IMG/VR virus record: IMGVR_UViG_3300010883_000002
Direction: 5' to 3' (one strand)
Origin: an uncultured virus (IMG/VR IMGVR_UViG_3300010883_000002)
Lineage: Duplodnaviria; Heunggongvirae; Uroviricota; Caudoviricetes
DNA length: 64,000 nucleotides
A program made the translations under genes and the position numbers. Of this stretch, positions 27,701 to 51,681 are shown piece by piece. How positions within the stretch are numbered: position 1 is the first letter of the stretch; every line of letters starts with the position of its first letter. The notes below the pieces were generated by a model. The model was given only the letters and a program-made list of their open reading frames with translations. It had not been told where the DNA came from and ran no database searches.

Positions 27701-30700
27701 CAAAAAACAAGGGCTATATACAGGCGTTTTCTACGGAAAGCGGAAAATATTTGTGCGTCTATGATAAGCCAAGTAAAGAATTAATTCCTGAGAAAGATTT
27801 TATATTGGCGAATGCTGGTAATTCACAATCCGATATTTTAACTACAATTCTTATTAAAGTACCCGGTATGGCATGTATGCCTAGTGATAAAATGCTATTG
27901 GTTGCCGAATTAGAGCTTGACAAAATTAAAATTGTTACTCTAGATGGCGGCGAGATTGGGATGAAAGAACCTGTCTCATCGTGGACGGGCAATATTTATA
28001 CCTCTGATGAAGGCGATGGTGTAGCCAAGTTTACTCCTGATGACTTAACGGCAACCATTGCCGTGGCAATCGGAGCCTGTTCTCCCTCAGAGTTAAACGA
28101 TCCTTCGCTCTTTATGTTTAGTGACCAAGTTGGTTCCTCATGGGACAGCCTCAATCCTTTGGTGGATTTTGATTGCTCTTATTCTGTTGTAGCTGACGCA
28201 GAGGGAAATAGCGAAATTGATATTGTAGATGTTGTTACTTTGCGTAATGGGTTTGCTTGGTATGGATTTAGTGCTATTGGTGATCAAGATAATAATACTC
28301 AAGCCTCATATGTTGAAAACATTGTAGCATATTCACTTGGGAAGAAGCTTGTTCCACGAACTTGTTGTCCAGATTTTAATTTAGATTTTGATGTATTTGT
28401 TCCAGACGAATGTTCAGACTTTTGTGTTCCGCTAGATTGTTATGGAAAGATTTGGATTGAGAGAGTAACAAAGCTACAAAACGGCGTCCATGCAATTGAT
28501 GTTTATTATAGTACAAGCTGTGAGAAGAATTCTGGATTTCAGTTTGCAATTCGTGGGCTTAATCCGAAAGAAGGAATTTATAAAATTGATACTTCTGTAT
28601 CTCAAGCTGCGGGTAACAAATATAATCTTGTTCAAGGGTTGTTTTCTGGCGATGGGACTTCTTCAAATAAAATTTATATCGCATATGCTGGAAATGAAGA
28701 AAGTTATGTGCCAGAATCAAAAGGTCTTCTTGTACGATTATTGATTAGTTCAAAAGCCCTGCTTTCAAGTGCGGAGATGCTGCGTATTAAATCCAGCAGG
28801 ATGTTGGCAGAATATCAGGGTTCACGCAATGTAACTTCAAGGGCACGAATAGGCTTCACTTCTGAAAATATGGTTCGTAAACTTTATGGTATGCAGGCAG
28901 TCAAGTGGAGAATATTATCTAATAGTGATACAATAATACCTGCCTCGTCATGGGATTCAAATAATATTCAAGAAGAAGACTTGAATTATATTAAAAAACT
29001 TATTGAAGCTGGCGAGTATGACCCCTTATATGATGCAGAAGGGGATGAAGTTCTGGATGTTGCAGATATTCAAACTGTATATCACGCTATTATGACAGAT
29101 AGTTTTGGAAATGATTTAGATAGTGGTACTCTGCTGCCTTCAAATTGTTGTCCCTGTGTGGTTCCAGAGCAGCCTGATTTAGAAGTCCTACACTATGCGT
29201 CTAAAGACGAAGATGTACCGGAGAAACTTAGCGCACGATGGCGTGAATTATTTGACTGTCGAGGCGGAAGGCTTCGTGGTGGTATAATTTTAGTTTGGGA
29301 TAACCAACCAGATGCAAATTATTATGAAATTTGGAGACAGAGAGTAACAAACGATCCAGAAGCATCAAAGCCGATGATGGTGACTGATACTAATGCCATT
29401 CTTCGTAGTTATCAGAACTTCTTAGAGGTTGCAATAAGTGCTGAAACTCAAAACGACCAGAAATCTTCCATGTACATGGAGGTCGGCTCACCAAAAACTT
29501 ATTCTTATGTAGATTTTCCAGCTACAGCTAAACAGGTTTGTTGTGATCCTTGCGATCCCACAGATTCAAGCGGAAGTGATTCGGGGTCTGATGACGAAGA
29601 TTGTGAGAATGATGTACACAGTATGTACAGATATTGGATTGTCGCATATAATGATTGCGGAGAAGCTTCTTCTAAACCAAAGACAGGTGTTATACCTTGT
29701 TGTTTTTACAACCCAATTGCATATAATGACACTTATTCAACAACTATGAATCAGGGTATAATGGGACAATTTAAAGCATATCACCCATATGCTCACCAAC
29801 AGTTTAATTACCCGTTGGGTGCAGATTCTTGTGAGGGGGAAAGTTCAGATTGTGTTGCGCTTGTTTATAAAGCACCACTTGGTGATTCAAACTTCACAGC
29901 CAAGGGCGGCAAGGTATCGGTTGGATCTGGGGGAGATCGTGAATTCAAATATGGTCCAGCAGAAAATTATATCGGAGTTGATGGATTTAGGTTTATGGTT
30001 TGTGCCATACCAAGCAAACTTAGAACGATTCAAAACAGTTCTTCGCTCAGGGCAAAATATGATATTGATGGAACAACTAAAAGTGACGAAAAAGGCTCTT
30101 ATAATAAAAATCAAAAAGCTCTCAAAAACGCCTCTTTAAATGTTGCGACGAGAATGACCAACCCGCTGGTCCGACTGCCAGCAAGAAACAATAAGCCGTG
30201 TTGTGATATTGGCTTCATCAGAATTAATGTGTTGCCTCCCTGTCCTTTGAAGATCAGTGCGAAGTCTGGGGCGTGTGCAGAGAATGATTATTCTGAAACT
30301 GTTGAGATAGCGTGGTCTGGATACCCGATTGCCTCTATAAGTTCTTATAATGTATACAGGTTAGACCAGACTGGCGAGGACTGGACTCTATTAGAAAATG
30401 TGCCGAACGTTTCTTCTGTCGTTTATTATACATACACAGATACCGAAGTTCCCGCACCCCCACAAGAACCTTGTGAACCGGGTGATAGCTACAATGTAGC
30501 CTATGCCGTAACTTCTGTTACCACAAGCGGCTTGGAATCGCCTAATGGCTGTATAGAAGCGTGTGCGGGCGTTCCTTGTGAAGAGAAGTCTCAAAGCAGG
30601 CTAAGGTGTTGTGTTCTCGCCCGTGTTTTATGCTGCCCAGATATACCAAATCCAGATATTGAGATCACAAACCTTACTTCCTGTCCAGACGAGGAAACAG

Positions 30701-32092: not shown

Positions 32093-35000
32093 TTGGCTGG
32101 AATTTGTTCAAAAAGAGGGAAACGAAAACTTATGTATATTGAAGGATTAGTTGAAGATTTAAACGGGCTACAAGGCGACTTAGACAATTCACTTCCCTCT
32201 TTACACCCATGCCAAAGAGAAATTGTTAGGGCTGTTCTAGAGATTTTAAAATATTCTTTCGGAAAAGTCTCGGAAACAAACTTTGGTTGTTGTCAAGATA
32301 TTTGTTTAGCGACTACATGTTGGGATCTTCCAGAGGGTTATGATACGGCGAAGCTTCAAGATGACGTAGCGTTTATTATCTCTCTTTCAAATATTGGGTT
32401 CACTAAAGGTGGAGCCAAGCCAAGCGGAAATTTAGCAGAGTGGTGGGACAGCAATGACCAGCAACTAACAAAAGGAATTCTAGATTGCATTTCTGATGCC
32501 GTTTTGGGTCTTTTGGGTAGCGAAGGATTAGATATTCTTGATGAAACTGATCCTGCGGCAGCAAAAACGGCTCAAGCACTGCTTGCCGCTGTTCTCTTTT
32601 TAGTATTTGGCGACCCTGTTATAATTCTTCATAATTCACAAGGATTACTCTCAGACGATAATCTTGAAGTGCTTCTAAATGATGCAATTAAAAATCTAGC
32701 TGAGTCTCTTGGTGGTACACCAGTTGCATACCAAGAACTGTTGATGGATTTGGATCTTTATAATGACGACCCGACAGACCTTTCTGCTACAAATTTTACA
32801 CCCGAAAGATTTCGTGATGTTATAAGATGGTTATTGCAAGATTTTCAGTATTCAATAAATCAAGTTCATGATCTTAAATTAGAAGAAGAAGGTGATGGCA
32901 GCGGCGAAGACCCATGCCCAGATAATCAATTCGGAATCAGGTTCCCAAGTTGGCCTGGTTTTTTGTGGATGCTTGCAAACGTTACAGTTGGTGTTTTTGG
33001 TGGAGCGGCTTGGGGTATTTTAGTTAAGAAGCGTTGGTCAGAAGAGCAGTCACAGTCAGAAACTAATGAATGTGGCGGTGGAGCTTTCCCTCCAATTGGA
33101 ATAAATGATATAAACCATCCTGCTTGGATGGATAATTTTTCTGCACCATCTCACCCATTCGCAGATCAAGCCTTTAGGGTTAGTGAAATACACGCCCATC
33201 ACATTACGGGAAGTCCCACTGCCCTAGAATCTTTAACAATACAATTTAATCAACCTGTTCATTATAATGCGCCGAATACTGTTGTAGAATATTCTTACGA
33301 TAATGGTGCAACATGGAATGGGGCGATTGTGACGAACGCCTACAATTTACCAACAGATTTCTTCAATGTCACTCTTTCAGACGCCAACGGCAACCCGATT
33401 GCTCAAGGTCCGAATGGATGGCACTTAAGAATTAATATCTTTGGTGCAACAAGTGCTGATGGAACTGAAATGATTCCTTGGACAGACACATGGACTTCTG
33501 TTGGTGTAGGGCGAGAAGATTACTTTATCGGCTTATCTGGTGATGAAGGCATGAGGGTGGCACACCCCTACAATGATGAACTTTCAGAGTGGTTGTTGGG
33601 AACATGTAGATGTTCAGAAAAGACTTTTAATTTAGGAATCGACCAATTTACTGGTCTTGATGACCCTGATTGGATTGCTCAAGGTAACGACCCCGAAGGT
33701 GAACTAACTACATCTTATTTTGTGGTTGAATATGATAATCAAATATATTATACAACAGTCGGTGATTTTGTCTTAGGACAAGACGGGCATGTTTATTGGA
33801 ATGGCGAGGACGCATACACCGGACTGGGACTTGAAATCAGACTCCAAGGATTCAATGACGGAAATCCGTCCAATTGTGAAGACGAGCTTAGCGGCACACT
33901 TGAGGCTATTCAACTGACGGATCTTTGTTGTGAGTTGGAAATTGATGAGTGTGGAAAGATTTATTGTTGCAAGGATAACAAACCATGTTTGCAAGGACAA
34001 ATTGCATTGGCATGTTTTATTGGTGATCTCGATTGCGGATTAGACTTGCATTGCGGAGTCCTTTTTGAAGACCTTTGTATTCCAAATGAAAACAGTGGTG
34101 AAGCCAACATTGGCACTCCATGCGCTCAATGCCATCCCGCTTTGAATCCTCATGAGGTAATCGAAGGTGAAACCTATTCAAATGTTATGCTCCTTACTGA
34201 GTATTTTATTGGCGCATATGAACAATACTTTGGCGACGATTTTAAAGTTATTTTTGCTGCAATCGGAGCAACCGGATTATTAAATAAAAAGACTGCTGAC
34301 TTCTGTGGGTTCTTACACCCCGATGCAATGTGTACTCCATTCTTAGAGAAGTTTGTTTGTCAAATTATTATGTCTCAGTGTGAGACTGAATGTATTGAAG
34401 TCGAGGCACACGGCAAGATAGACGACCAGCCTCACCCACGATGGGTTGACAAACACGCAGCACTGGTTGTTGCTGGCGAACTAGCGTCCTTTAGCAATCC
34501 ATTCCAAGCTGTCTTTGATGGAGTTATTTATTCTGGCAATGGACCTCCAAGCATAAATTTCATTCAACAGAATCCCGAAAACGAGATGGCTGCGTTTACT
34601 GTAAACGGAGATCATCTTGTTGCGGCAATTAATAATACTGGTGGTCCACCAACCCCAAACTCAATAATTTTAAACATTAATGAAAGACCTATCGGGGCTA
34701 CACTTCCAACCATTAATGGCGAAGAAGTTTATTATATGTTCTACGATGCTCAGCTTGGAAGAGCATTTACAGTTTCCGATCAGCAACACGCTTCGCCAAA
34801 CGATATATCTTCACAACCATTCTTCCCACTTACAAATGTTGTGAACATTTCAGGGAGTTCGTTCAACGGTTTGATGTTTAGTCCATTTTTGCCAGATTAT
34901 TATTATGCACTCCAGCCGATTTCTTTCACAGGCGGCGGCGGCGGGATTGTCGAACTTAACCGTATCTTGCTCAGAGCAGATGGCGAAAACGTAAGACGAG

Positions 35001-38000
35001 GGTTCCAGATTTATAATGATGGCGAGCAACGCTGTTTAGTATGGAATCCCGACTTTGGTGATCCCAACAATTGCCAAGACTGTGCGGGACTTCCAAATCC
35101 CGGCGATACAGCCACTATTTTGTATGTATTAGATGCTGATTCTGCACCCTCTTCCCTTCCAGACGATGAATGTGGACAAGACGCTAATAATAGTAGCCCC
35201 TTTCTTGGTTCAGAACCCTGTGCAAATCAAAAGATTTGTGTAGGTGATGCTTGTTGTATCTGGATTAAAGAAGATGGTACTGTTATGGCTGACGGCACCA
35301 AAGTTGGTACAGTAGGAATCGTTACAGACTATGGTTCTGCATTCGATGACAGCACCACTCCCGCTGGGATGAAAATTGGTGGTCATCCGAACTGGGAAAA
35401 TCATAATAATTTTCCATGTCTTTGGGCATCCCTAAATTATGGAAATGGTACTCAAGCCGGACCAGTCTATTGGGATGTTTATGACTTTTTAATTAAAGAA
35501 CCAAAAGATACAGACGTTATTTTACATCATGATCCCGATGGACAGCCGTTTCTTGATTGTCAAGAGCCTAACGCTCTTAGAAATTGGTTTGCTGGACCCG
35601 ATGGGTGGCAGTTACCACTAGCTATTTTTGATGCAGACCCCGACAATCCAACAGGTCATAACTGTTGCCCAAAAACTTTTACTATTTGTGATTGCACATA
35701 TCCCATCCCTGAATGGTTGAATGAGTGGTTTGACAAATATTGTTGTTATCTATATCTAAAACTACCTTATGATCCTTGTAATCCAAACGACTGTATGAGA
35801 TATACAAGAGAAGAGCAGATTATGCTCGTTACTGCGTTGTGGGATCTAGTTGAAGCCTTCTTAAACAGTACGCCATTCGGGATTGCATTTGGTTTTAAAG
35901 ATTGGCCAAATTCAATGACAAGATATTTAAATGTTATTCCATTCGGCAAGCAATTAATTCCGAATCTCAACGACACCTTTGGTGGTTGGGAAGTCGGATG
36001 TGTTCCAGAACCAATCGAGCTTGTGCTTCCATGTACAGGAGAAGTGTGCGTTGATTGTTGTGAGTGGATGTGCGAGTGTTGTGATCCATGTGCCGACGAA
36101 GAAGAGGGTTCAGGTTCAGGCTCAGGCGAAGAGCCTTGCGGTGATAACAATAATTGTGATTGCTGTGATTGTGCAGTTGGCGTTTGGAAACAACCTGTCA
36201 GCGGCGGCGATTGCGGTGATGGCGACTGTGCCGGGTATCCTCTTGGGGCTGTTGTACACTATCCAGACGAGGATAGCGACTGTTATGTTTCTCTCATTGG
36301 GTGTGAGCCTAATGGTGGAAACTATGAGCCTATTTTCATAACGGTAAGTGGTGAGCAAGTCTTGAACGCTGAGGCTTGGGAACCTTGCCCATCGACATAC
36401 CCAGAATGTCCAGCTAATATCGAACTCGATGCCGGATGTTGTTGTGTCTTTGGCGAAGGAAGCACAGAGTTGGTAGGAGATATTTATTATCTTACAACGG
36501 GCTGTAGTAGTGAAATCGTGGACGGCGAGCAATATATTGATGGGCAGTGCCTTGAGATTTGTACTGATGCCGAAGCTCCTTGTCCAAATGACTGGAGATA
36601 TAAGATTTGTCACGAATATGAGGATATGGATGGCAACGGACAACAACAGCAACAAAACCGAATGGCGATGGATGTTATTGGTCCAATTACGAGAGACACA
36701 GCGACAGGATTAATGGACGTTAATGACTTCCTTTCTTTGGAGTCTCTGATGGAACTCAACAATGCGTTCATAACGGGTATGCAAAGCCAGCAGAGAGATG
36801 CACTGTATGCGCTGAACGATTTTTCATACGGACCAATAGATAGAAAACTAGATAGCGGATTAAAAGCTTCTACGATTAATGCAATGAGAAGAGTTGCTGG
36901 AGATATGCATCTCCGTGAGCAACTTGTCAAAGCTGGACTTGAAGGAAACAGATCGGCTAACATGCATGTGGACCCAGAAGAAATTTGTGTATATGTAAAT
37001 GCGGGTGAGCAGCAGAAGAAGCCAGACTCTTGTATTAGTGTTTGTCTGCCAACCTCTGCCCCTAGCTTTGGAACTACGACAGAGTGGGAAGTTACGCTAC
37101 AATTCCTTAACAAGCAAGGCGAGTGGGAAGACTGTGGCACTGACTTGGTTTGCCTATGTTGTGTGAACATCTGTGACGAAGTAGACTTTGAAGTTTCATT
37201 AAACGGACCTCAAGGTGAAGCTCTTGTTGAAAAGTGTTGCGTAATCGGCGCAGCAGGACAGATGGGACTCAGCGGAGCGTGGGCTACAAGCCAGTCAGCG
37301 GCGGTTAATTGGAACTTGATAGTCAAAGATGATAACGGGATGCTCTGTCTTGTTAATAAACTCCCAGCAGACTCAAACCCCCCAACGTTCCTGAATGGAG
37401 CAATGAAGGTTACTTTAGAGCCAAGCACCCTTGGAAATTCTAAGCTTATGTGGAACAACACCAATGACCTTGGTGGTGCTTATAATAATGGCGACAAATA
37501 TGCACTACAGGGATTCGACTTAGATCCTATTACTGGTCTGGTTGTTGGCGGCTTAAAGGCACTTGAAGTTAATCTATTGGAGACAGGTGGAACAGATTTT
37601 GTAGATGATTGTGGAGAATTTAGGCGACTAACTTTTGATCAGCAGGGATTCCCGACTGGTGACGTGCCATACCAACAAGTAGCTTTTTGGGATACTCTAG
37701 GAAATACGCCGCTGTGCGGAACAGTAAATGGTATAACCACCAACTATATGTACGCTGATATTTGCGTCCCTCAAGGGGGTAGTGCAACTGGAGATTCAAG
37801 CATTTGTGCCAGCGTCGGCAACGTCTTTGAGATGCTAGTTCCAGAGTATAATGAATGCCCAGAGAACGAAGAAGGTAATGGTAAATGTCTTACTATCTCC
37901 GGTCCCATAGACCGTGACCTATTGCCGCTGTGTGCTGAATACCGATGGAGCGTTAATGATAGCCTTTATTATGGATACTCATGGGAAGCTCTTGAATTTG

Positions 38001-41000
38001 GTTATCAGACAATCTGTGTTCCTTACGGACAAACGACACTTAAACTTGAATATCGAGCGTGTGAGGGCGATTGGAAAGAGTGCTGGTCATCTGGCGAGCT
38101 AGAAATCGAAGATTGTTGTGAGATTGATTGTGACACGGTTAACGGTCCAATTGCGTGGACGGTAACTGCACCAACGAATGCAGAAGAGGCTTGTTGTGAT
38201 GTTAACGACGGACAGATTCTTAAAACAACGTTCTTCGACAAGCACCTACAGGATGGCGTACTTAATTGTGGCGATAAGATTGATGGGGATACATCAGGAT
38301 CAGACCTCAACAGCCCATCCAACTGGTATAATTGTACAGGCGGCACAGCAGAAGACGGTCAGTGCTATACAATCCAAGCCGATGATACATTGGGTTGGTG
38401 GTGGACAGCGCCCGGTCTTGATTGTGCTTGCTGGAAGTTTGTTCTAGAAGATCAAAACGGTAATCCACTTGCAGAGTGGCTATTGGCTAATACTATGCCA
38501 AGCTCTCCCTCAGCGGAACCACCGTTCCTTAATCTTTGTCTACCAACAGATCAAGAAAATATGGTGCTGTCATATCAGTACAGCGAAGACGGTGGAGCAA
38601 CTTGGCAATCTTGTTGGTCGGAAACAATTTCGACTGGAGATTGCTGTGAAATTGACTGCGGCGATTATTTCGTCACGGGGGCGGCGACCAATCTTGACAT
38701 TGTATGGACAGCCGATGGATGTTGTGATGATACAAACATTGCAGACTGTAGCGGAACGGCAAATGAAGATGGTGAGTGTGCCACAGTTGACTTCTCCGTA
38801 AAAAGTGGAATGGAATTGTGTGAGGCAGTAACTTGGCATGTTGAACTCTGGAACGACTGGACTGGTACACCCCAACTCGTGGATGTTCTTTATACAAGTT
38901 TAACTCCAGAAGACTCTATTAGTTTCAATGAAACACGATGTTTGGCTCAAGGTCAGTACGGGCTGGTGGTTACTTTAACAGATTCGACAGGAGTAGTTAT
39001 TTGTAATCAAGTGGCGATTCCTAGTTCCACTCACAACACAGCACAATGTTGTAATTGCGAACTATCGCTTGAAATCTTGGGATCAAAATATATTGTTAAC
39101 GACCCGAATCAGTCAAATTGGGTTGCGAACTGCACCAACGCCGAAGCAGAGTGTTGTTGTCTCGTTCTTGCAGATATTAAACATTATGGAACTGAGTACG
39201 ATCCTCTCGGTGGCTCAACGGTTAGTCTTCAAGACCCATGTGATGAATTCACCGACGCACCTGTCGCACTGCTTCCCGGCAGATGTGTCAAAGTAGCTCA
39301 CGGTACAGATTGTTCCAATGACCCAGCCACTCCCGGTGGATTGTATTGGAAGATCGAAATGAACCGACGTTACTTCGGCTTGCAGGGCGCTCCTGAACAG
39401 TTCCAATGGAAATACGATCCTGCTGCTGGTTTTGGCACAGACCATACCTGTCAAGGACCGTGTGGTGACAATACTTTTCCAAATGGACAAGGCAACGACG
39501 ATCAGCTTGCATTCATTGATGGCTTGAAGCCTCCCACATGGATTTTGACTGGTGTTTCGGGAACTCCATTATGGAAGCCAGAAAATGATATTGCTTATGC
39601 TCCGAACCCAGTGCAAGTTGGTAATGCTCCCGATTGGAATCATTGCCTAGTTCCACCACAGGTTATAACAATTAATGGACAACCTGTCTGGTATCAGTGG
39701 GAAATTACGCTAGTTGGATATACCGACGTGACCATGAACAACATTTTCTGTTGTGAAAAGGTTATCTGGACTGCTGACGGTGTTGCAGGAAGTAACTACC
39801 CCAACGACCCCGGTTGTGTTCCCGGTGACAATGTTTATGCCGACCTCCCTAACAATGGTAGTGGTGAGTGCATACCCAATAATAACTTCGCTTTCGCATT
39901 CTCTGACAACGTACAGATGGATGAGCTTACAGAAGTCTTCATTGATGTTCTAGGTGATCCCACCACAGGCTATTCTCAATTCTCGACAGATAACATGGCG
40001 AATTGGAATCCAGCAGGTGTTGCTGACCTAATGGACAGTAGTGGCACTGGATATAATTTCATTAACATCGCAGATGTAACAGCGCCGACTGATGGTAATG
40101 TATATATTGTTGCAGCCAATGGTTCATCATTGAGTGGATACTCAAACCCACTTAACAGACCAGTGTTTAGTTATACTAATACTGGCGGTGCCGCAAACGG
40201 ACCCGATACATTCAATTATAAAATTAATAATGGTGTGACGACGGGCGACAGCTTAGAAAGTAATGAAGCTTGTATAACAATTAATCTTATGGTTAATACA
40301 GCATTATATGGTGATTGTTGGACCAACGTTGTTGTCTTCCACAGAGATGACGGCTCATTCGGTGGACAAGGTACGGCGCAGGTTCTTGGTGGTGCTGGTA
40401 GTCAATTAGTAATTGAATACTCGGCTTCACTCGGTGGCTCCGGTGGCGGCAACGCTCCCGTCCTTCATCAAATTGTATGCAAGGGTGGTGCTGACTTCAT
40501 CGACACCGATCCAAACGCATTGGGTTTCCAATGGACCGATGATAGCTTTGTAGAGTTTGATGGACGAGACAATTTACAGAATCCGTGGACATTCAAACTT
40601 GCAAATTATGAATATGAAAACAATGCTTGGGATAACAACGTAACACCGGGCGGTCCACCGCCTGCGGCATGGGTCGATTCTGCTCACGGAAATCCCGATC
40701 ACACGAACTATGACGGCAAAAAGACCTATGCAAGAGTTTATAGTTTCAAGATAGATACTTATTTGGGCACAGCTTCCAATGAAGTTACGTTTAGATGGGA
40801 ACCAGATCCGGCTTGGTGTTGCTTGCCAATCTCTTCGGGTGGTATGTCAGATATGCCTCACGGTGGACACAAGTGTGCTCCCGGTAATGCTGAGGTTGAT
40901 ACACTCTCCAACGAAGGCTTTGGCTCTTACTTTATGACAAGCGTTCCACCAGAAGGCGGGGTGAATATCTTTGGAAATTATAGAACTTCTGGACCGGATT

Positions 41001-41842
41001 GTTGTGAGGGTGACGGTGGATGGGGTCAATTCCCAAGCGGCACTGAGATGGGAACATCCATTCTAGCAATGCCCAACATGGGAGTTATGGTAGTTAATTC
41101 AATTGGACAGATCGAAACAGGGCTGGCACATGGTTACAGCGTAACGGCTGGCGAGACTGTACCTAATTATGGCACCAATCCCACACCCAATGGATGCAAC
41201 GGCATTCCCGGTACGGGATACTGCAACGGCGTAATGAGTGCCATGTGGAGTGCGAACCCCTTCCGCTATCTATCAGGACGTGGTAGTGACGGATACATGT
41301 TTGGTACTCCCAATGGTGTAGCAATGATAGAAACTAAATATATCAGCGACCGTTGTGACCAAATAGGTGATTGTAGCACCGAACCTTGTCCAGATGGCAC
41401 CCTGACGGGACTATACCAAGAGCCGTGGATGCTGCCTCTTTATGTGCAAGATGCACCAGAGGCAGGACAGGTGGCGTTTATTAACTGTCCAGCACCACAG
41501 AACGGGGCTAGTGATGATACATATACAGTTGACGCACCGGGTGGTGTATCAGGTAACTCAACTGATCTGATGGTTCTTCAGAATGATTTCATTGCCAACT
41601 ATGGAACTAACCCGAACGACGGAAGTTCAGTACAAATTTATATCCAGAATGCACCCACTTTGGGCGGTGTCCTGACCGTTAACGGCAATGACCCAAATGG
41701 ATATGATAATTATATTACATACACAAGTGCTGCGGGGTCGGGCGGTCTGCAAGACACTTTCACATATATGGTGATAAGGTCTAATGGTCCAAACCCACAG
41801 AACAGTAATGTTGCAACTGTAACTGTTAATATATCGACATAA
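32093..41842 (+). CDS. Giant Cys/Asp/Gly-rich protein with C-terminal Ig-like (Big_9-like) domains; probably structural or surface
   Basis: 3249-aa open frame; many CC and CxxC; ASDDTYTV...VLQND...ITYT...DTFTY...ATVTVNI; start uncertain (TTG 32093 or ATG 32132). Confidence 0.75.
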   Translation: MAGICSKRGKRKLMYIEGLVEDLNGLQGDLDNSLPSLHPCQREIVRAVLEILKYSFGKVSETNFGCCQDICLATTCWDLPEGYDTAKLQDDVAFIISLSNIGFTKGGAKPSGNLAEWWDSNDQQLTKGILDCISDAVLGLLGSEGLDILDETDPAAAKTAQALLAAVLFLVFGDPVIILHNSQGLLSDDNLEVLLNDAIKNLAESLGGTPVAYQELLMDLDLYNDDPTDLSATNFTPERFRDVIRWLLQDFQYSINQVHDLKLEEEGDGSGEDPCPDNQFGIRFPSWPGFLWMLANVTVGVFGGAAWGILVKKRWSEEQSQSETNECGGGAFPPIGINDINHPAWMDNFSAPSHPFADQAFRVSEIHAHHITGSPTALESLTIQFNQPVHYNAPNTVVEYSYDNGATWNGAIVTNAYNLPTDFFNVTLSDANGNPIAQGPNGWHLRINIFGATSADGTEMIPWTDTWTSVGVGREDYFIGLSGDEGMRVAHPYNDELSEWLLGTCRCSEKTFNLGIDQFTGLDDPDWIAQGNDPEGELTTSYFVVEYDNQIYYTTVGDFVLGQDGHVYWNGEDAYTGLGLEIRLQGFNDGNPSNCEDELSGTLEAIQLTDLCCELEIDECGKIYCCKDNKPCLQGQIALACFIGDLDCGLDLHCGVLFEDLCIPNENSGEANIGTPCAQCHPALNPHEVIEGETYSNVMLLTEYFIGAYEQYFGDDFKVIFAAIGATGLLNKKTADFCGFLHPDAMCTPFLEKFVCQIIMSQCETECIEVEAHGKIDDQPHPRWVDKHAALVVAGELASFSNPFQAVFDGVIYSGNGPPSINFIQQNPENEMAAFTVNGDHLVAAINNTGGPPTPNSIILNINERPIGATLPTINGEEVYYMFYDAQLGRAFTVSDQQHASPNDISSQPFFPLTNVVNISGSSFNGLMFSPFLPDYYYALQPISFTGGGGGIVELNRILLRADGENVRRGFQIYNDGEQRCLVWNPDFGDPNNCQDCAGLPNPGDTATILYVLDADSAPSSLPDDECGQDANNSSPFLGSEPCANQKICVGDACCIWIKEDGTVMADGTKVGTVGIVTDYGSAFDDSTTPAGMKIGGHPNWENHNNFPCLWASLNYGNGTQAGPVYWDVYDFLIKEPKDTDVILHHDPDGQPFLDCQEPNALRNWFAGPDGWQLPLAIFDADPDNPTGHNCCPKTFTICDCTYPIPEWLNEWFDKYCCYLYLKLPYDPCNPNDCMRYTREEQIMLVTALWDLVEAFLNSTPFGIAFGFKDWPNSMTRYLNVIPFGKQLIPNLNDTFGGWEVGCVPEPIELVLPCTGEVCVDCCEWMCECCDPCADEEEGSGSGSGEEPCGDNNNCDCCDCAVGVWKQPVSGGDCGDGDCAGYPLGAVVHYPDEDSDCYVSLIGCEPNGGNYEPIFITVSGEQVLNAEAWEPCPSTYPECPANIELDAGCCCVFGEGSTELVGDIYYLTTGCSSEIVDGEQYIDGQCLEICTDAEAPCPNDWRYKICHEYEDMDGNGQQQQQNRMAMDVIGPITRDTATGLMDVNDFLSLESLMELNNAFITGMQSQQRDALYALNDFSYGPIDRKLDSGLKASTINAMRRVAGDMHLREQLVKAGLEGNRSANMHVDPEEICVYVNAGEQQKKPDSCISVCLPTSAPSFGTTTEWEVTLQFLNKQGEWEDCGTDLVCLCCVNICDEVDFEVSLNGPQGEALVEKCCVIGAAGQMGLSGAWATSQSAAVNWNLIVKDDNGMLCLVNKLPADSNPPTFLNGAMKVTLEPSTLGNSKLMWNNTNDLGGAYNNGDKYALQGFDLDPITGLVVGGLKALEVNLLETGGTDFVDDCGEFRRLTFDQQGFPTGDVPYQQVAFWDTLGNTPLCGTVNGITTNYMYADICVPQGGSATGDSSICASVGNVFEMLVPEYNECPENEEGNGKCLTISGPIDRDLLPLCAEYRWSVNDSLYYGYSWEALEFGYQTICVPYGQTTLKLEYRACEGDWKECWSSGELEIEDCCEIDCDTVNGPIAWTVTAPTNAEEACCDVNDGQILKTTFFDKHLQDGVLNCGDKIDGDTSGSDLNSPSNWYNCTGGTAEDGQCYTIQADDTLGWWWTAPGLDCACWKFVLEDQNGNPLAEWLLANTMPSSPSAEPPFLNLCLPTDQENMVLSYQYSEDGGATWQSCWSETISTGDCCEIDCGDYFVTGAATNLDIVWTADGCCDDTNIADCSGTANEDGECATVDFSVKSGMELCEAVTWHVELWNDWTGTPQLVDVLYTSLTPEDSISFNETRCLAQGQYGLVVTLTDSTGVVICNQVAIPSSTHNTAQCCNCELSLEILGSKYIVNDPNQSNWVANCTNAEAECCCLVLADIKHYGTEYDPLGGSTVSLQDPCDEFTDAPVALLPGRCVKVAHGTDCSNDPATPGGLYWKIEMNRRYFGLQGAPEQFQWKYDPAAGFGTDHTCQGPCGDNTFPNGQGNDDQLAFIDGLKPPTWILTGVSGTPLWKPENDIAYAPNPVQVGNAPDWNHCLVPPQVITINGQPVWYQWEITLVGYTDVTMNNIFCCEKVIWTADGVAGSNYPNDPGCVPGDNVYADLPNNGSGECIPNNNFAFAFSDNVQMDELTEVFIDVLGDPTTGYSQFSTDNMANWNPAGVADLMDSSGTGYNFINIADVTAPTDGNVYIVAANGSSLSGYSNPLNRPVFSYTNTGGAANGPDTFNYKINNGVTTGDSLESNEACITINLMVNTALYGDCWTNVVVFHRDDGSFGGQGTAQVLGGAGSQLVIEYSASLGGSGGGNAPVLHQIVCKGGADFIDTDPNALGFQWTDDSFVEFDGRDNLQNPWTFKLANYEYENNAWDNNVTPGGPPPAAWVDSAHGNPDHTNYDGKKTYARVYSFKIDTYLGTASNEVTFRWEPDPAWCCLPISSGGMSDMPHGGHKCAPGNAEVDTLSNEGFGSYFMTSVPPEGGVNIFGNYRTSGPDCCEGDGGWGQFPSGTEMGTSILAMPNMGVMVVNSIGQIETGLAHGYSVTAGETVPNYGTNPTPNGCNGIPGTGYCNGVMSAMWSANPFRYLSGRGSDGYMFGTPNGVAMIETKYISDRCDQIGDCSTEPCPDGTLTGLYQEPWMLPLYVQDAPEAGQVAFINCPAPQNGASDDTYTVDAPGGVSGNSTDLMVLQNDFIANYGTNPNDGSSVQIYIQNAPTLGGVLTVNGNDPNGYDNYITYTSAAGSGGLQDTFTYMVIRSNGPNPQNSNVATVTVNIST

Positions 41843-46859: not shown

Positions 46860-47196
46860 AAATTATTCTATCGCTCGGAAACTACAAAAAGAAAAACGAT
46901 CTAATAATGAATTTGAAGTGATGCTCAACCGTCTAACATTAGAAGAAGTAATTGGACTCAAGTTGGAGTTAGCTTCTAAAGCTGCTGGTAGTTCTTTATA
47001 CGGACTACCACTATGGCATTCAATGAAAGAGATTATTCAAGAAGCTGTATTTAAATATGCTGTTTCTGCAACACAGACAAAAGGTGAAGCTATTAGATTT
47101 TTGGGCGTGACTCCTAGTTATTTCAGGAGCCTATATAAGAAGTTTGAGATAGATAATTATTTTATTAATGGGGGTGAAATGGATTCGACAGAGTAA
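46816..47196 (+). CDS. Basic protein with Fis-like C-terminal HTH; 3' end overlaps tmRNA
   Basis: TQTKGEAIRFLGVTPSYFRSLYKKFEI; stop at 47194-47196 lies inside tmRNA. Confidence 0.7.
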   Translation: MTWIKRKKSYKGKNKNYSIARKLQKEKRSNNEFEVMLNRLTLEEVIGLKLELASKAAGSSLYGLPLWHSMKEIIQEAVFKYAVSATQTKGEAIRFLGVTPSYFRSLYKKFEIDNYFINGGEMDSTE

Positions 47197-47541
47197 GGAA
47201 GGTTGAGAGTGCAAGCAGCCAACGGTAACAAATGGCTTGACAGTGTTACATCGTTTTTAACTGACAACGATAACGTTCAGTACGCTCTAGCTGCTTAAGC
47301 AGTATTAGAGCCGGGGTTTCTGATGACCTTGTGATCCAACATCAGATAAGTGGTTGGTCCCACCGAAATAAACTAGACCAAAATGGATACCCTGTTTGTA
47401 ACAGGTGGACTTCCGAGGCTACATGGGAAGTGGGAAAATATGCAGCTATTTTATTGATTTGGAAATAAATCAAACAAGCTTGTGGATGACTTGATATTAG
47501 ATTTATTTTGGACGGGAGTTCGACTCTCCCCACCTCCACCA
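47170..47541 (+). ncRNA. ssrA: tmRNA, tag (A)DNDNVQYALAA*
   Basis: 5' GGGGGTGAAATGGATTCGAC; 3' GGGAGTTCGACTCTCCCCACCTCCACCA with G3:U70; tag frame 47263-47298. Confidence 0.95.
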
Positions 47542-48143: not shown

Positions 48144-48220
<77 letters not shown>

Positions 48221-48253
48221 TTAATTTAACTAAACTACGGAGTAATAAAAAAA

Positions 48254-48862
48254 ATGGAAAAAGAAATATACTGGCTTAGTGACTCTCCAGAACCCAAGAA
48301 GGGAGAGGTTTCCGAGTCATCAGATGATAATAGAGTTGAAACAGAACAGAATAGAATATATTTTTATTCAGAAGTAGAAAGACACAAAAACTTAGAATTA
48401 AACAAAAGTATTCAGAGTCTATCAACCACATTAGTTAATCGTGGTAAAGAACTTGATACAGATCCCGGCAAAATCTTTTTGCATATTAATTCTTACGGAG
48501 GAAGTGTCTTTGCTGGGCTTTCTTCTGTAGATTATATTATGAACTCCCCAGTTCCAATTACAACTATTATTGATGGCTGTGCTGCAAGTGCTGCAACTCT
48601 CATGAGTGTGGTAGGAAGCAGACGGATGATGCATAAACATTCTTACATGTTAATCCACCAGCTTTCTTCGGGAACGTGGGGAAAATATGAAGAGATTAAA
48701 GATGAGATGAAAAATTGTGACAATCTGATGAAAGTCATTAAAAATATTTATGCCAAACATACAAAGATCCCCAGTAAAGAACTAACCAAGCTCTTGAAGA
48801 GAGATTTGTGGTGGGACGCAGAGACGTGTCTCAAGTACGGATTGATTGACGAGATTATTTGA
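48254..48862 (+). CDS. clpP: ClpP-family serine protease
   Basis: INSYGGSV, GCAASAAT (catalytic Ser), LIHQ, RDLWW...YGLIDEI. Confidence 0.88.
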   Translation: MEKEIYWLSDSPEPKKGEVSESSDDNRVETEQNRIYFYSEVERHKNLELNKSIQSLSTTLVNRGKELDTDPGKIFLHINSYGGSVFAGLSSVDYIMNSPVPITTIIDGCAASAATLMSVVGSRRMMHKHSYMLIHQLSSGTWGKYEEIKDEMKNCDNLMKVIKNIYAKHTKIPSKELTKLLKRDLWWDAETCLKYGLIDEII

Positions 48863-48868
48863 TGTGCT

Positions 48869-48941
48869 TGGGGTGTAGTTCAATTGGCAGAGCATCGGGT
48901 TGTTACCCCGAAGGTTGGTGGTTCGACTCCACCCGCCCCAG
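48869..48941 (+). tRNA. tRNA-Asn(GTT)
   Basis: U1-A72; tcggg-TTGTTAC-cccga; G73; CCA not encoded. Confidence 0.9.
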
Positions 48942-48961
48942 CATTTTCTTAAAAATACTTC

Positions 48962-48990
48962 TTGACACCAGCTTAATTTAAGGTTATATT
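48962..48990 (+). promoter_or_regulatory. sigma70 promoter of the tRNA cluster
   Basis: TTGACA-N17-TATATT. Confidence 0.8.
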
Positions 48991-49002
48991 AGTAATATGA
49001 AT

Positions 49003-49087
49003 GGGGTTGTGGTGGAACTGGTAGACACGCTAGACTCAAAATCTGGTGCCTTTTGGCGTGGGGGTTCGATTCCCCCCAACCCTACCA
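49003..49087 (+). tRNA. tRNA-Leu(CAA)
   Basis: ctaga-CTCAAAA-tctgg; long variable arm; CCA. Confidence 0.93.
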
Positions 49088-49090
49088 TAT

Positions 49091-49167
49091 CGGGATGTGG
49101 CGCAGTCTGGCAGCGCATCTGCTTTGGGAGCAGAGGGTCGCAGGTTCAAATCCTGCTATCCCGACCA
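49091..49167 (+). tRNA. tRNA-Pro(TGG)
   Basis: C1-G72; tctgc-TTTGGGA-gcaga; CCA. Confidence 0.95.
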
Positions 49168-49170
49168 TTT

Positions 49171-49267
49171 GGGGACGTAGCTCAGTTGGTTAGAGCAGCG
49201 AGCTTATACCTCGTATTAGCGCCTGATAAGCGCAAGGTCGTGGGTTCAAGTCCCACCGTCCCTACCA
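49171..49267 (+). tRNA. tRNA-Ile(TAT) with an extra arm carrying a GAT anticodon-like loop
   Basis: gcgag-CTTATAC-ctcgt, then atta-gcgc-CTGATAA-gcgc-aaggtc; normal D and T arms; A73; CCA. Confidence 0.88.
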
Positions 49268-49288
49268 TTTTTAGAAAGAGAAAAATAA

Positions 49289-49588
49289 ATGTATAAACCA
49301 CTACCGAACTCACTAACCTTAAAAAATTCCGAGATACATGGTGTTGGTATATTTGCCACCGAGGATATTCCTTCTGATACGATATTAGGAATCACTCACA
49401 TAATTGACGACAGGTTTGAACAAGAACATATTAGAACTCCACTAGGGGGTTTTTATAATCATTCTACAGATCCAAACTGTGAAACGTATTATATTGATGA
49501 TATAATGATTCTAAGAACAATTAGAAATATAACATCAGGTGAAGAGATAACCAGTAAATATAAACTATATTTCCCGTCGCCGCTGTAG
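49289..49588 (+). CDS. SET-domain protein-lysine methyltransferase
   Basis: SEIHGVGIFATEDI, GFYNHSTDPNC, RNITSGEEITSKY; GTG start; stop inside tRNA-Thr. Confidence 0.88.
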   Translation: MYKPLPNSLTLKNSEIHGVGIFATEDIPSDTILGITHIIDDRFEQEHIRTPLGGFYNHSTDPNCETYYIDDIMILRTIRNITSGEEITSKYKLYFPSPL

Positions 49589-49654
49589 CTCAATTGGTAG
49601 AGCAACGCATTTGTAATGCGTAGGTTGTAGGTTCAAGTCCTATCAGCGGCTCCA
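49579..49654 (+). tRNA. tRNA-Thr(TGT)
   Basis: acgca-TTTGTAA-tgcgt; CCA. Confidence 0.95.
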
Positions 49655-50829: not shown

Positions 50830-51681
50830 TTATTCTTGGGCAGCGGTTGCTGCTCTTCTTCTCCTTTCAATATAACTATTGAAATTAATTGTTAGAAAAT
50901 CTCTCATCTGTTGAAGGGTAGCTGAGTACGGTGCTGATGGAAATCCACTGTGAACCGAATGAATCATTCCGACCAACATCCATTTGTCTCCAATACTAAT
51001 AAATATTGGCGAACCCGAACTGCCGGGAGCAGCATTAATATCTGAATACCATGCTGAAATTTCTGTGGGACACCGGGGCGCTCGGCATTCACCAACGTAA
51101 AAACCTTCTTCTATTAAAACAGCCGGGGGGTGTATAATTCCTAATGGAGCCGCAATGTTTAAAACACGCTCTCCGTTCTCTGGCGGTCTTGGCGATAATT
51201 TTATTGGGATAGAATATGGCATCCTTTCGGATTCCATTAAACATAGATCGCCTCCCATATCATAAATTATAATATTTACATCATCATAAATATTCCCGGC
51301 GTAATCCATTAATACAATTTTGCGAGAGAATGTAGTTGTTGTGAGGGAGTCTTTTGTGGGATCGTACCCGAACATTGCTGGGTTAACAGGGACACAAACA
51401 TGACCAGCGGTCAATATTAGGGATCTCTCTGATTTGCTTAGTGGATCTCTGTAGTGCCTGACAACAACGGCTGATGCCTTACCGTGAGCTAACGTCGCAG
51501 AAGAACAACTTTGTGGACTAGCTTGTTCACAGGTTTCTATTAATATGTGTGAGGATATTTGAGCAAAAGCTTTTGTCGGCGGGCTTATTTTATTACTTCG
51601 TGAGGTGGCACAGCCGCCTCCGATTATTACAAAACTTATCAACGCCGACAAGATCAAAGATTTTAACTCCAGTATTTTCAC
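50830..51681 (-). CDS. Trypsin-like serine protease, probable lipoprotein
   Basis: LTAGHVC, DLCL, PGSSGSP; N-terminal hydrophobic segment ending GGGC. Confidence 0.88.
   Translation of the reverse strand: MKILELKSLILSALISFVIIGGGCATSRSNKISPPTKAFAQISSHILIETCEQASPQSCSSATLAHGKASAVVVRHYRDPLSKSERSLILTAGHVCVPVNPAMFGYDPTKDSLTTTTFSRKIVLMDYAGNIYDDVNIIIYDMGGDLCLMESERMPYSIPIKLSPRPPENGERVLNIAAPLGIIHPPAVLIEEGFYVGECRAPRCPTEISAWYSDINAAPGSSGSPIFISIGDKWMLVGMIHSVHSGFPSAPYSATLQQMRDFLTINFNSYIERRRRAATAAQE

What the first reader, a model, noticed from the sequence alone, without database searches (positions are those of the whole stretch)
49171..49267. tRNA-Ile with two anticodon arms: UAU in the canonical arm and a GAU anticodon loop in the variable arm
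Seen: GGGGACG UA GCUC-AGUUGGUUA-GAGC A GCGAG-CUUAUAC-CUCGU AUUA GCGC-CUGAUAA-GCGC AAGGUC GUGGG-UUCAAGU-CCCAC CGUCCCU ACCA. The first loop has UAU (49205-07). The extra arm's 7-nt loop CUGAUAA (49223-29) equals the canonical bacterial tRNA-Ile(GAU) anticodon loop and is followed by the usual AGGUC. Both anticodons specify Ile. Known: most bacteria read AUA with TilS-modified lysidine-CAU tRNA, and IleRS uses the GAU/LAU anticodon as an identity element. Inference: the GAU arm may recruit host IleRS while UAU decodes AUA, giving a TilS-independent AUA reader. Alternatives: conformational switching or processing yields two isoacceptors, or the second loop is a decoy for anticodon nucleases. Long-variable-arm UAU tRNAs may be described already, so novelty needs a literature check.
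Basis: partly seen in the sequence, partly recalled or inferred. Interest (0 to 1): 0.9.

Follow-up and report, generated by a model that had tools for sequence, protein, structure and literature searches.

The report
Phage isoleucine tRNA with two anticodon-type arms
This marine phage gene is a real transfer RNA for the rare isoleucine codon AUA that carries, beside its working anticodon arm, a second small arm displaying the anticodon of the common isoleucine tRNA, a design shared by many phages and apparently undescribed.

Summary
Window 49171-49267 (+) is a 97-nt tRNA with a 7/5 cloverleaf, UAU in a canonical anticodon arm, and a second hairpin with the loop CUGAUAA followed by AGGUC.

It is not an assembly chimera. 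I collected 105 distinct sequences of this design from uncultured viral contigs, cultured Vibrio and Acinetobacter phages, and tRNA arrays in bacterial assemblies.

- **GAU is conserved without being imposed.** In scans that did not constrain the extra arm, 48 of 59 long-variable-region tRNA(UAU) genes have GAU centred in a 7-nt loop on a covarying 3-4 bp stem. None of 26 Leu/Ser/Tyr controls do.
- **UAU is the partner.** When the first arm was left free, 69 of 72 long tRNAs found had UAU.
- **The hairpin sits before a complete variable loop.** It aligns with the anticodon arm of ordinary phage tRNA-Ile(GAU), so the UAU arm looks like an insertion.
- **AUA means isoleucine in this phage.**

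Best reading (about 0.5, inferred, no biochemistry): the UAU arm decodes AUA, and the retained GAU arm supplies the anticodon determinant that E. coli-type IleRS needs and UAU lacks, without TilS.

Six full-text searches found no description.

The parts
49171..49267 (+). whole gene: tRNA-Ile(UAU) with five helices, 97 nt, CCA encoded
   Evidence: ARAGORN; Rfam RF00005 64.8 bits; sequence
49171..49177 (+). acceptor stem 5' strand (7 bp with 49257-49263; first pair G-U)
   Evidence: covariation in all 7 pairs across 105 sequences
49180..49196 (+). D arm (4-bp stem GCTC/GAGC, 9-nt loop with GG)
49198..49214 (+). first arm: 5-bp stem, loop CUUAUAC, anticodon UAU at 49205-49207; the decoding arm
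   Evidence: Across the family, loop position 33 is U in 105/105 and position 37 is a purine in 105/105; part of this was imposed by the search patterns, not
49215..49218 (+). linker AUUA between the two arms (family: 1-4 nt in 102 of 105, mode 2; three longer, up to 8 nt)
49219..49233 (+). second arm: 4-bp stem GCGC/GCGC, 7-nt loop CUGAUAA with GAU at 49225-49227; flanked by an A.A mismatch
   Evidence: (hairpin present in MFE and centroid folds)
49234..49239 (+). tail AAGGUC: looks like a complete class I variable loop (AGGUC); last base pairs by rule with base 15
   Evidence: tail 5-6 nt in 101/105; base 15 / last tail base A:U 61 and G:C 15 of 105
49240..49256 (+). T arm (5-bp stem, loop UUCAAGU)
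49257..49267 (+). acceptor 3' strand, discriminator A (49264) and CCA
   Evidence: discriminator A in 104/105, CCA encoded in 78/105
48144..49654 (+). surrounding phage tRNA cluster: Arg(UCU) 48144-48220, Asn(GUU) 48869-48942, Leu(CAA) 49003-49087, Pro(UGG) 49091-49167, Ile(UAU), Thr(UGU) 49579-49654
   Evidence: all on the + strand; tRNA-Pro ends 3 nt before the gene

Best explanation
The gene encodes a working phage tRNA that reads the codon AUA as isoleucine through the UAU anticodon of its first, fully canonical arm.

The second arm is the former anticodon arm of a tRNA-Ile(GAU). The UAU arm was inserted 5' of it, or arose by duplication of it. The old arm has since been kept only for its loop. 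It presents G-A-U in a 7-nt anticodon-type loop to the host isoleucyl-tRNA synthetase. That supplies the anticodon determinant, above all G34, that E. coli-type IleRS requires and a UAU anticodon lacks.

The phage thereby delivers an AUA reader that needs no lysidine (TilS) modification and is still charged with isoleucine.

Shown:
- the anatomy
- the family and the conservation of UAU and GAU
- the stem covariation
- the likeness of the second arm to the tRNA-Ile(GAU) anticodon arm
- AUA = Ile in the phage's genes

Inferred: The arms could lie side by side, or exchange places on the D-stem stack.
For: 1. Real tRNA.

2. Family: there are 105 distinct sequences. All have U33 and a purine at 37 in the UAU arm, and 104/105 have discriminator A. 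Some of this was imposed by the search patterns.

3. GAU is conserved where it was not imposed: 41/41 and 7/18, with loops CAGATAA, CTGATAA, CAGATTA, CTGATAT, CTGATTA and TAGATTG. There are 18 different inner 3-bp stems and 4-5 pair types per pair. Class II controls: 0 of 26.

4. The link to UAU is specific. With the first arm unconstrained, 69 of 72 long non-Leu/Ser/Tyr tRNAs at the matches have UAU, and one more is a UAU variant with C33.

5. Origin:
- MAFFT aligns the GAU arm with the anticodon arm of class I phage tRNA-Ile(GAU) and leaves the UAU arm as an insertion of about 20 nt.
- Window bases 50-95 of the gene are 93.5% identical to a Streptomyces phage tRNA-Ile(gat).
- In Vibrio phage Achelous the two-arm gene lies 5 nt after a tRNA-Ile(GAU) gene.
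- The hairpin is followed by a 5-6 nt tail whose last base covaries with base 15.

6. The need:
- Trp905 stacks on the wobble base, and W905R raises the specificity for UAU about 20-fold (PMC3575796).
- That Trp is present in 3 of 3 E. coli-type IleRS of assemblies carrying the tRNA.
- Cultured hosts are Vibrio and Acinetobacter.

7. Amino acid: at 21 AUA codons of two conserved window genes, homologues have I 55%, L 12%, V 7%. AUU/AUC columns give I 68%; Leu columns give L 73%. Several AUA columns are invariant Ile.

8. Demand: 243 AUA codons, 21.5% of Ile codons in the window. The commonest neighbour of the family is tRNA-Arg(UCU), another reader of a rare A/U-rich codon.

9. Precedent: the C-terminal domain of the related class Ia LeuRS reads bases at the tip of a variable arm (PMC3333845 passage; PMC3561953 abstract in the search listing).

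10. No conserved internal partner (AUC) for the GAU loop exists in the tRNA.
Against: - There are no aminoacylation, binding or structure data.
- Class I synthetases approach tRNA from the side away from the variable region (recalled textbook knowledge). A 3-4 bp hairpin is shorter than a 5-bp anticodon stem, so the loop cannot simply occupy the normal anticodon site without rearrangement.
- The loop departs from a true tRNA-Ile anticodon loop. Position 2 is A in 87/105. Position 6 is U in 41/105, although t6A37 is reported as a strong determinant for bacterial IleRS (PMC9976931).
- In the set, 11 of 18 long-variable-region tRNA(UAU) genes carry other inserts without GAU.
- One contig (L051) also holds an ordinary class I tRNA(UAU). 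UAU tRNAs without the mimic therefore exist in viral contigs.
- Two of the five assemblies examined (Bacillota MAGs) have a long IleRS with no detectable match to the E. coli C-terminal segment, so the Trp argument cannot be made for them. Binning of phage contigs into MAGs is also uncertain.
- All 5 assemblies have TilS, so the tRNA is a supplement, not a necessity.
Confidence: 0.5

Rival explanations
1. The hairpin is read by something other than IleRS, or is a structural add-on. Candidates are a phage or host factor, a modification enzyme, or a shield against host tRNA-cutting defence nucleases. In this reading GAU is conserved for that unknown partner. The tRNA still reads AUA as Ile and is charged through its body and A35-U36.
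For: - Extra small hairpins also occur in other phage tRNAs without any anticodon likeness: tRNA-Asn and tRNA-Trp of Erwinia phage pEa_SNUABM_55, and tRNA-Arg(CCU) in L067.
- 11 of 18 long tRNA(UAU) genes in the set have non-GAU inserts.
- The loop often has A at position 2 and U at position 6.
- Phage tRNA-Ile(GAU) genes with C33 hint at pressure on Ile anticodon loops.
Against: No protein other than IleRS is known (to my knowledge) to read GAU in an anticodon-type loop. The association with UAU is nearly exclusive. The hairpin derives from a tRNA-Ile(GAU) anticodon arm.
Confidence: 0.22
2. It is a two-headed decoder. Either arm can take the anticodon position, so one tRNA reads AUA (UAU arm) and AUC/AUU (GAU arm).
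For: In the window's own subfamily the second loop is a perfect anticodon loop (C-U-GAU-A-A) on a 4-bp stem plus an A.A layer, and it is followed by AGGUC. The junction is symmetrical: the first arm is continuous with base 26 and the second with the variable loop. The window holds no separate tRNA-Ile(GAU).
Against: - U33, near-universal in decoding tRNAs, is replaced by A in 87/105 second loops.
- Position 37 is U in 41/105.
- Stems are 3-4 bp.
- Vibrio phage Achelous and several arrays carry a separate tRNA-Ile(GAU) next to it.
- Only 64 kb of a contig of 128.7 kb was seen.
Confidence: 0.07
3. The GAU arm is the true anticodon arm (an AUY reader), and the UAU arm is the accessory insert.
For: The GAU arm is the homologue of the original anticodon arm and keeps its normal 3' continuity with the variable loop.
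Against: The UAU arm keeps every hallmark of a decoding arm in all 105 sequences, whereas the GAU arm has lost them in most. UAU would then be conserved for no known reason. The Rfam tRNA model places the UAU arm as the anticodon arm.
Confidence: 0.05
4. It is a class II-like tRNA charged by LeuRS or SerRS. It would put Leu or Ser at AUA, as nematode nev-tRNA(UAU) or allo-tRNA(UAU) do.
For: It has a long variable region and discriminator A. Precedents are PMC3333845 and PMC5389517.
Against: - AUA columns are Ile-like, with invariant Ile sites.
- The branch is 7/5, not 8/4.
- The hairpin is not at the class II position and the D stem has 4 bp.
- SerRS and bacterial LeuRS do not read variable-loop sequence (recalled), so GAU conservation would be unexplained.
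Confidence: 0.03
5. It is an assembly chimera or a decaying pseudogene of two tRNA-Ile genes.
For: None beyond the odd look.
Against: - There are 105 distinct sequences with compensatory changes in every stem.
- The design is present in complete genomes of cultured phages.
- An independent DNA run holds a close variant of this stretch: a contig on 49188-49267 with 6 differing letters (record 23).
Confidence: 0.01

Closest known systems
Class I bacterial tRNA-Ile2(UAU) of tilS-lacking bacteria (Mycoplasma mobile; PMC3575796)
   Same: UAU anticodon reading AUA without lysidine; 7/5 cloverleaf; discriminator A.
   Different: There the synthetase adapted (Arg865 in place of Trp). Here the tRNA appears to adapt, by carrying an extra GAU-loop arm. 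The M. mobile tRNA has an ordinary short variable loop.
Class II tRNAs (Leu, Ser, Tyr) whose long variable arm is an identity element; archaeal LeuRS reads the tip bases (PMC3333845 passage; PMC3561953 abstract in the search listing)
   Same: A fifth helix in the variable region that a synthetase can use for recognition.
   Different: - The hairpin lies between base 43 and a complete 5-6 nt variable loop, not inside that loop.
- The D stem has 4 bp.
- The loop is a 7-nt copy of another isoacceptor's anticodon loop.
- The amino acid is Ile.
allo-tRNA(UAU) (8/4, Ser-type; PMC5389517) and nematode nev-tRNA-Ile(UAU) (Leu-charged; PMC3333845)
   Same: UAU anticodon combined with a long extra arm; allo-tRNAs also occur in phages and Acidobacteria.
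   Different: Those have Ser- or Leu-type bodies and mistranslate AUA. This family has a tRNA-Ile(GAU)-type body with a 7/5 branch, and AUA is Ile in the phage's genes.
Anticodon-arm mimics outside tRNAs that bind their synthetase (mRNA operators such as the yeast case in PMC6542539, seen as abstract in a listing; viral tRNA-like structures)
   Same: A hairpin copying an anticodon loop serves as a handle for the cognate synthetase.
   Different: Those mimics are regulatory or replicative elements in mRNAs and genomes. Here the mimic would sit inside a decoding tRNA and serve its own charging.
Earlier notes of this scan: e1-5752543 (phage AUA tRNA with extra arm), e1-5148201 (tRNA-Trp with a fifth arm)
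   Same: e1-5752543 describes the same type on other DNA: an Ile-type body with a conserved short hairpin, and no paper found.
   Different: That note left the function open. The GAU invariance, the link to UAU, the homology to the tRNA-Ile(GAU) anticodon arm and the size of the family are worked out here.

Membership tests
tRNA (Rfam RF00005) | Score over the curated gathering threshold with full-length cloverleaf match | tested here: met
   64.8 bits vs 29, model positions 1-71; ARAGORN call
tRNA-Ile reading AUA (UAU type) | UAU anticodon in a 7-nt loop with U33 and purine 37 on a 5-bp stem | tested here: met
tRNA-Ile reading AUA (UAU type) | Charged with isoleucine | not testable with these tools
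   Indirect only: AUA columns are Ile-like; the body is 93.5% identical over 46 nt to a phage tRNA-Ile(gat); discriminator A
Class I tRNA | Variable region of 4-5 nt | tested here: not met
   25-nt region between the anticodon stem and the T stem
Class II tRNA (Leu/Ser/Tyr type) | Extra arm inserted within the variable loop (after 44-45), leaving only 1-2 nt before the T stem (feature recalled, not from a call) | tested here: not met
   3' tail of 5-6 nt in 101/105, 6 nt in the window
allo-tRNA | 8/4 or 9/3 acceptor/T-stem branch (PMC5389517) | tested here: not met
   7-bp acceptor and 5-bp T stem, all pairs covarying
Intron-bearing tRNA | Insert in or next to the anticodon loop with splice motifs | tested here: not met
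   The insert is a separate helix outside the anticodon loop. Intron-bearing tRNA(UAU) genes seen in the set look different. Splice motifs were not searched formally.
Synthetase-binding anticodon mimic | Binds the cognate synthetase through the copied anticodon | not testable with these tools
   Only sequence likeness and conservation of GAU

The most novel reading that the evidence does not exclude
This would be a natural tRNA in which identity and decoding are split between two anticodon-type arms. The host IleRS reads a vestigial GAU arm and the ribosome reads an inserted UAU arm, possibly with the arms exchanging places on the D-stem stack. It would be the first natural tRNA carrying an anticodon mimic for its own synthetase, and a ready-made way to uncouple the anticodon from synthetase recognition.
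Probability: 0.45. Interest if true: 0.9.

Novelty: new variant of a known kind. Interest (0 to 1): 0.78.

Why it matters
Reading AUA is a long-standing puzzle of the bacterial code. It normally requires the essential enzyme TilS, and the few bacteria that use UAU had to change their IleRS.

If the GAU arm is an identity handle, phages have found a third solution that changes only the tRNA. That solution works in hosts with an unaltered synthetase.

It would also show that an anticodon determinant can be read away from the decoding anticodon. This bears on how synthetases dock tRNAs. It would give genetic-code engineers a natural template for tRNAs whose anticodon can be changed without losing their charging.

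The claim is directly testable with a transcript, a loop mutant and purified IleRS. Cultured Vibrio and Acinetobacter phages that carry the gene are available.

Tried and rejected
1. Whole-genome search of the window's own assembly: none is held.

2. Near-identity search of the cluster in cultured phages: only conserved tRNA pieces were found. The Aeromonas phage hits were a tRNA-Asn.

3. Cultured-phage searches with three other subfamilies: no match for L083, L090 or L084.

4. Expression:
- Seven RNA runs held small shares of the cluster.
- The three RNA runs that were laid cover the tmRNA exactly.
- They give no exact contig over the tRNA-Ile gene.
- This gives no verdict on expression or processing.

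5. Single-sequence folding gives the acceptor, T and GAU hairpins but not the D and UAU arms in the MFE (z = -2.33). This is usual for unmodified tRNA sequences and is not used for or against the reading.

6. Kissing of the two loops: the second loop of the window holds AUA, the codon for UAU. I judged this sterically unlikely for two short hairpins joined at their bases. It is also not general, because 41/105 have U at that place.

7. An internal pairing partner for GAU: there is no conserved AUC.

8. Literature: searches found no description of a GAU-loop arm in tRNA(UAU). The PNAS 2026 paper on anticodon-like triplets (PMC13715818, passages) concerns acceptor stems. No supplements of any paper were opened.

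9. A count of ordinary class I tRNA(UAU) genes in viral contigs, to give the share of the two-arm type, was not attempted, because scans stop at 120 rows.

Full report
**What is there**

ARAGORN calls a 97-nt tRNA-Ile with anticodon TAT at position 35. The Rfam tRNA model scores it at 64.8 bits against a threshold of 29, and treats the second hairpin as an insertion in the variable region.

The gene lies in a + strand cluster with tRNA-Arg(UCU), Asn(GUU), Leu(CAA), Pro(UGG) and Thr(UGU), downstream of a tmRNA gene.

No whole genome is held for the window. The gene content fits a large tailed phage:
- PhoH-like ATPase
- a protease of the head-maturation/ATP-dependent (ClpP-like) type
- HNH endonuclease
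- glycosyltransferases
- a late sigma-like factor

ORFs of 2417 and 3249 residues also lie in the window. The runs that hold the stretch are marine or seawater metagenomes.

**Anatomy**

The parts in order are:
- a 7-bp acceptor stem
- a 4-bp D stem
- a first arm with a 5-bp stem and loop CUUAUAC
- a 4-nt linker
- a second hairpin with a 4-bp stem and loop CUGAUAA
- a 6-nt tail AAGGUC
- a 5-bp T stem
- discriminator A and an encoded CCA

**It is a family, not an accident**

A scan of viral contigs that forced both loops gave 32 loci, of which 8 hold a 93-97 nt tRNA(tat) of the same build.

Two further scans fixed only the D-arm end, the UAU loop and the T arm, and left the region between free.
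- In the set with C at loop position 38 (46 loci), all 41 ARAGORN-called long-variable-region tRNA(tat) genes have GAT at the centre of a 7-nt loop closed by at least 3 pairs. Four more loci that ARAGORN did not call show the same by eye.
- In the set with another base at position 38 (62 loci, many of them chance matches or intron-bearing giant-virus genes), 7 of 18 do. The other 11 carry shorter, different inserts, such as a CC-GAAA-GG mini-hairpin.

The reverse scan fixed the GAU-type loop and left the first arm free. Of the 116 new loci, 82 hold a tRNA and 69 hold a long tRNA with UAU. The exceptions were one UAU variant with C33 and two odd long tRNAs.

Of 27 distinct Leu/Ser/Tyr-called class II tRNAs in the same loci, the only one with a GAU-centred loop is a mis-called member of the family.

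In all I have 105 distinct sequences. Loci of different scans overlap, so I count sequences, not loci.

RNAalifold recovers five helices on their alignment, with compensatory changes in 22 of 24 pairs. The extra stem shows 18 different inner 3-bp versions.

**Where the family occurs**

- Cultured phages: Acinetobacter phage vB_AbaS_qsb1, Vibrio phage henriette 12B8, and about forty Vibrio harveyi/campbellii phages of the Thalassavirus group. It is annotated there simply as tRNA-Ile.
- Bacterial assemblies: 27 loci, inside tRNA arrays, in Pyrinomonadaceae, Pseudoxanthomonas, Rudaea, Verrucomicrobiota and Bacillota MAGs.
- The window's own subfamily has no close match among cultured phages.

**Which arm decodes**

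The UAU arm has everything a decoding arm needs in all 105 sequences: a pyrimidine at 32, U33, a purine at 37 and a stem of about 5 bp. Part of this was imposed by my patterns, but not.

The GAU arm does not. Position 33 is A in 87 and U in 18. Position 37 is A in 64 and U in 41. The stem has 3 bp in 55, 4 bp in 48 and 5 bp in 2. The patterns allowed only A or U at loop positions 33 and 37. The two unconstrained sets show the same alphabet.

The second arm is therefore, as a rule, a displayed GAU and not a second decoder. The window's subfamily is the exception. Its second loop is a perfect tRNA-Ile(GAU) anticodon loop.

**Where the second arm comes from**

The hairpin does not sit where class II tRNAs carry their arm. 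After it comes a tail of 5-6 nt in 101 of 105 sequences. In the window this tail is the classical AGGUC preceded by one A. The last base of the tail follows the base-15 rule: A15 with U in 61 and G15 with C in 15 of 105.

The layout is therefore: base 26, UAU arm, a short linker (mode 2 nt), GAU arm, then a full variable loop.

Other evidence on origin:
- Aligned with ordinary phage tRNA-Ile(GAU) genes, the GAU arm falls on their anticodon arm and the UAU arm is left as an insertion of about 20 nt.
- Bases 50-95 of the window's gene are 93.5% identical to the tRNA-Ile(gat) of a Streptomyces phage.
- In phage Achelous the two-arm gene follows a tRNA-Ile(GAU) gene after 5 nt.

The simplest history is a tRNA-Ile(GAU) that gained a new arm 5' of its old anticodon arm. 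The old arm was then kept but trimmed.

**What amino acid**

The window uses AUA 243 times, which is 21.5% of its Ile codons.

I examined 21 AUA codons of the PhoH-like gene and an FkbM-type methyltransferase gene. At these codons, the 119 best homologues of each have Ile 55%, Leu 12% and Val 7%. The comparison columns are:
- AUU/AUC columns: Ile 68%
- Leu-codon columns: Leu 73%
- Ser-codon columns: Ser 48%

Ile is the majority residue at 13 of the 21 positions and Leu at 4. Several columns are invariant Ile. A Leu- or Ser-inserting tRNA at AUA would damage these proteins.

The discriminator is A in 104 of 105.

**How it most likely works**

Published kinetics (PMC3575796; abstract and several passages read) show the following:
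- E. coli IleRS charges a UAU tRNA poorly.
- Trp905 of the C-terminal zinc-binding domain stacks on the wobble base.
- This Trp is conserved in tilS-bearing bacteria.
- W905R raises the specificity for UAU about 20-fold.

A phage that wants to supply an AUA reader has two options. It can send a CAU tRNA that depends on host TilS, or a UAU tRNA that the host IleRS dislikes.

The family described here looks like a way round the second problem. It keeps the GAU anticodon loop of the parent tRNA as a handle for IleRS and adds a UAU arm for the ribosome.

Consistent with this:
- The three E. coli-type IleRS that I could read in assemblies carrying the tRNA all have the C-x-R-C-W motif.
- The cultured hosts are Vibrio and Acinetobacter; an Aeromonas phage record also gave a hit that I did not inspect.
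- All five assemblies have TilS.

The tRNA is thus a TilS-independent supplement and not a replacement.

A related class Ia enzyme, archaeal LeuRS, reads bases at the tip of a variable arm with its protruding C-terminal domain (passage in PMC3333845). Reading a side arm is therefore not without precedent.

How the arms are placed is open. Either the GAU hairpin lies beside the anticodon stem within reach of the flexible C-terminal domain, or the two arms exchange places on the D-stem stack. The symmetrical junction would allow the exchange. All of this paragraph is inference.

**What speaks against it**

- The loop is not a faithful copy: A33 in most, U37 in many. t6A37 is reported as a strong determinant for bacterial IleRS (PMC9976931, passage).
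- The stem is shorter than an anticodon stem.
- Class I synthetases bind the face of the tRNA away from the variable region (recalled).
- tRNA(UAU) genes without the GAU hairpin exist in viral contigs.
- Two Bacillota MAGs with the tRNA have a long IleRS that does not match the E. coli C-terminal segment.
- Other phage tRNAs carry extra hairpins with no anticodon likeness. A fifth arm as such may serve other ends.

**Rivals**

- An unknown reader, or a structural or protective role: 0.22.
- A two-headed decoder: 0.07, and only for the window's subfamily.
- The GAU arm as the real anticodon arm: 0.05.
- Leu/Ser mischarging: 0.03.
- An artefact: 0.01.

**Novelty**

Six full-text searches and passages of the two reviews most likely to mention it (PMC7609411; PMC9976931) gave no description of a GAU-loop arm in tRNA(UAU). 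The nearest items are:
- allo-tRNA(UAU) (PMC5389517)
- nematode nev-tRNA(UAU) (PMC3333845)
- class I tRNA(UAU) (PMC3575796)

Subscription journals are largely outside the library, and I opened no supplements.

The scan itself met this type before on other DNA (note e1-5752543) and left its function open. My calls agree with that note and add three things: the invariance of GAU, its exclusive link with UAU, and its descent from the tRNA-Ile(GAU) anticodon arm.

**Verdict**

- This is a new variant of a known kind.
- Interest is high, because the central claim can be settled with one enzyme and a few transcripts.

Noticed in passing
window 47170-47541 (+): Phage-borne tmRNA gene, tag peptide DNDNVQYALAA (Rfam 109.2 bits). 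Contigs of three RNA libraries match 47179-47533 without a difference, so it is probably expressed in the sea. DNA carry-over in those libraries is not excluded.
   Followed up: partly
L197:1419-1494, L299:1008-1083 (-), L201, L205, L218, L220: Ordinary tRNA-Ile(GAU) genes of Vibrio phage Achelous, Erwinia phage pEa_SNUABM_55 and Pyrinomonadaceae tRNA arrays have C instead of the near-universal U at position 33 of the anticodon loop. Other phage tRNA-Ile(GAU) genes in my loci keep U33.
   Followed up: no
L299:1372-1457, 2445-2531, 1520-1605 (all -): Erwinia phage pEa_SNUABM_55 has tRNA-Asn(GUU) of 86 nt and tRNA-Trp(CCA) of 87 nt with small extra hairpins in the variable region. It also has a tRNA-Lys(UUU) of 86 nt with an insert before the anticodon arm, which ARAGORN cannot type. 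Fifth arms in phage tRNAs of class I isotypes seem to be a wider phenomenon.
   Followed up: no
L067 (contig of 398 kb), tRNA-Arg(cct) of 91 nt: A tRNA-Arg(CCU) with a long variable region holding a short hairpin with a 7-nt loop, in the same contig as a two-arm tRNA-Ile.
   Followed up: no
L228, L260, L262, L278, L283, L256, L267, L235 and others of the set: A second kind of long tRNA(UAU): 16-19 nt variable regions with a mini-hairpin (for example CC-GAAA-GG) and no centred GAU, mostly with A at loop position 38 and often without encoded CCA.
   Followed up: partly
L051: One 105-kb viral contig holds both an ordinary class I tRNA-Ile(UAU) and, close by, a long two-arm version that ARAGORN does not call.
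   Followed up: no
L126 versus L084: A member of the family in which U33 of the UAU arm is C. ARAGORN then misreads it as tRNA-Tyr(ata).
   Followed up: no
window 49289-49588 (+) and 50830-51681 (-): The 99-codon ORF right after the tRNA (PHROG 28741, unknown function) has 7 AUA codons, and the 283-codon ORF nearby has 13. Both are far above the window's mean of 12.9 per 1000.
   Followed up: no
window 24748-32001 and 32093-41842 (+): Two giant ORFs of 2417 and 3249 residues. The first has no PHROG match at E <= 1e-5; the second was not scanned.
   Followed up: no
L201, L205, L207, L210, L218, L220 (Pyrinomonadaceae assemblies): The two-arm tRNA sits in dense arrays of unusual tRNA genes (Gln, Lys, Met, Asn, Val, Ile-GAU), some on contigs of 0.5-3.1 Mb. 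These elements therefore appear to be integrated in chromosomes.
   Followed up: no
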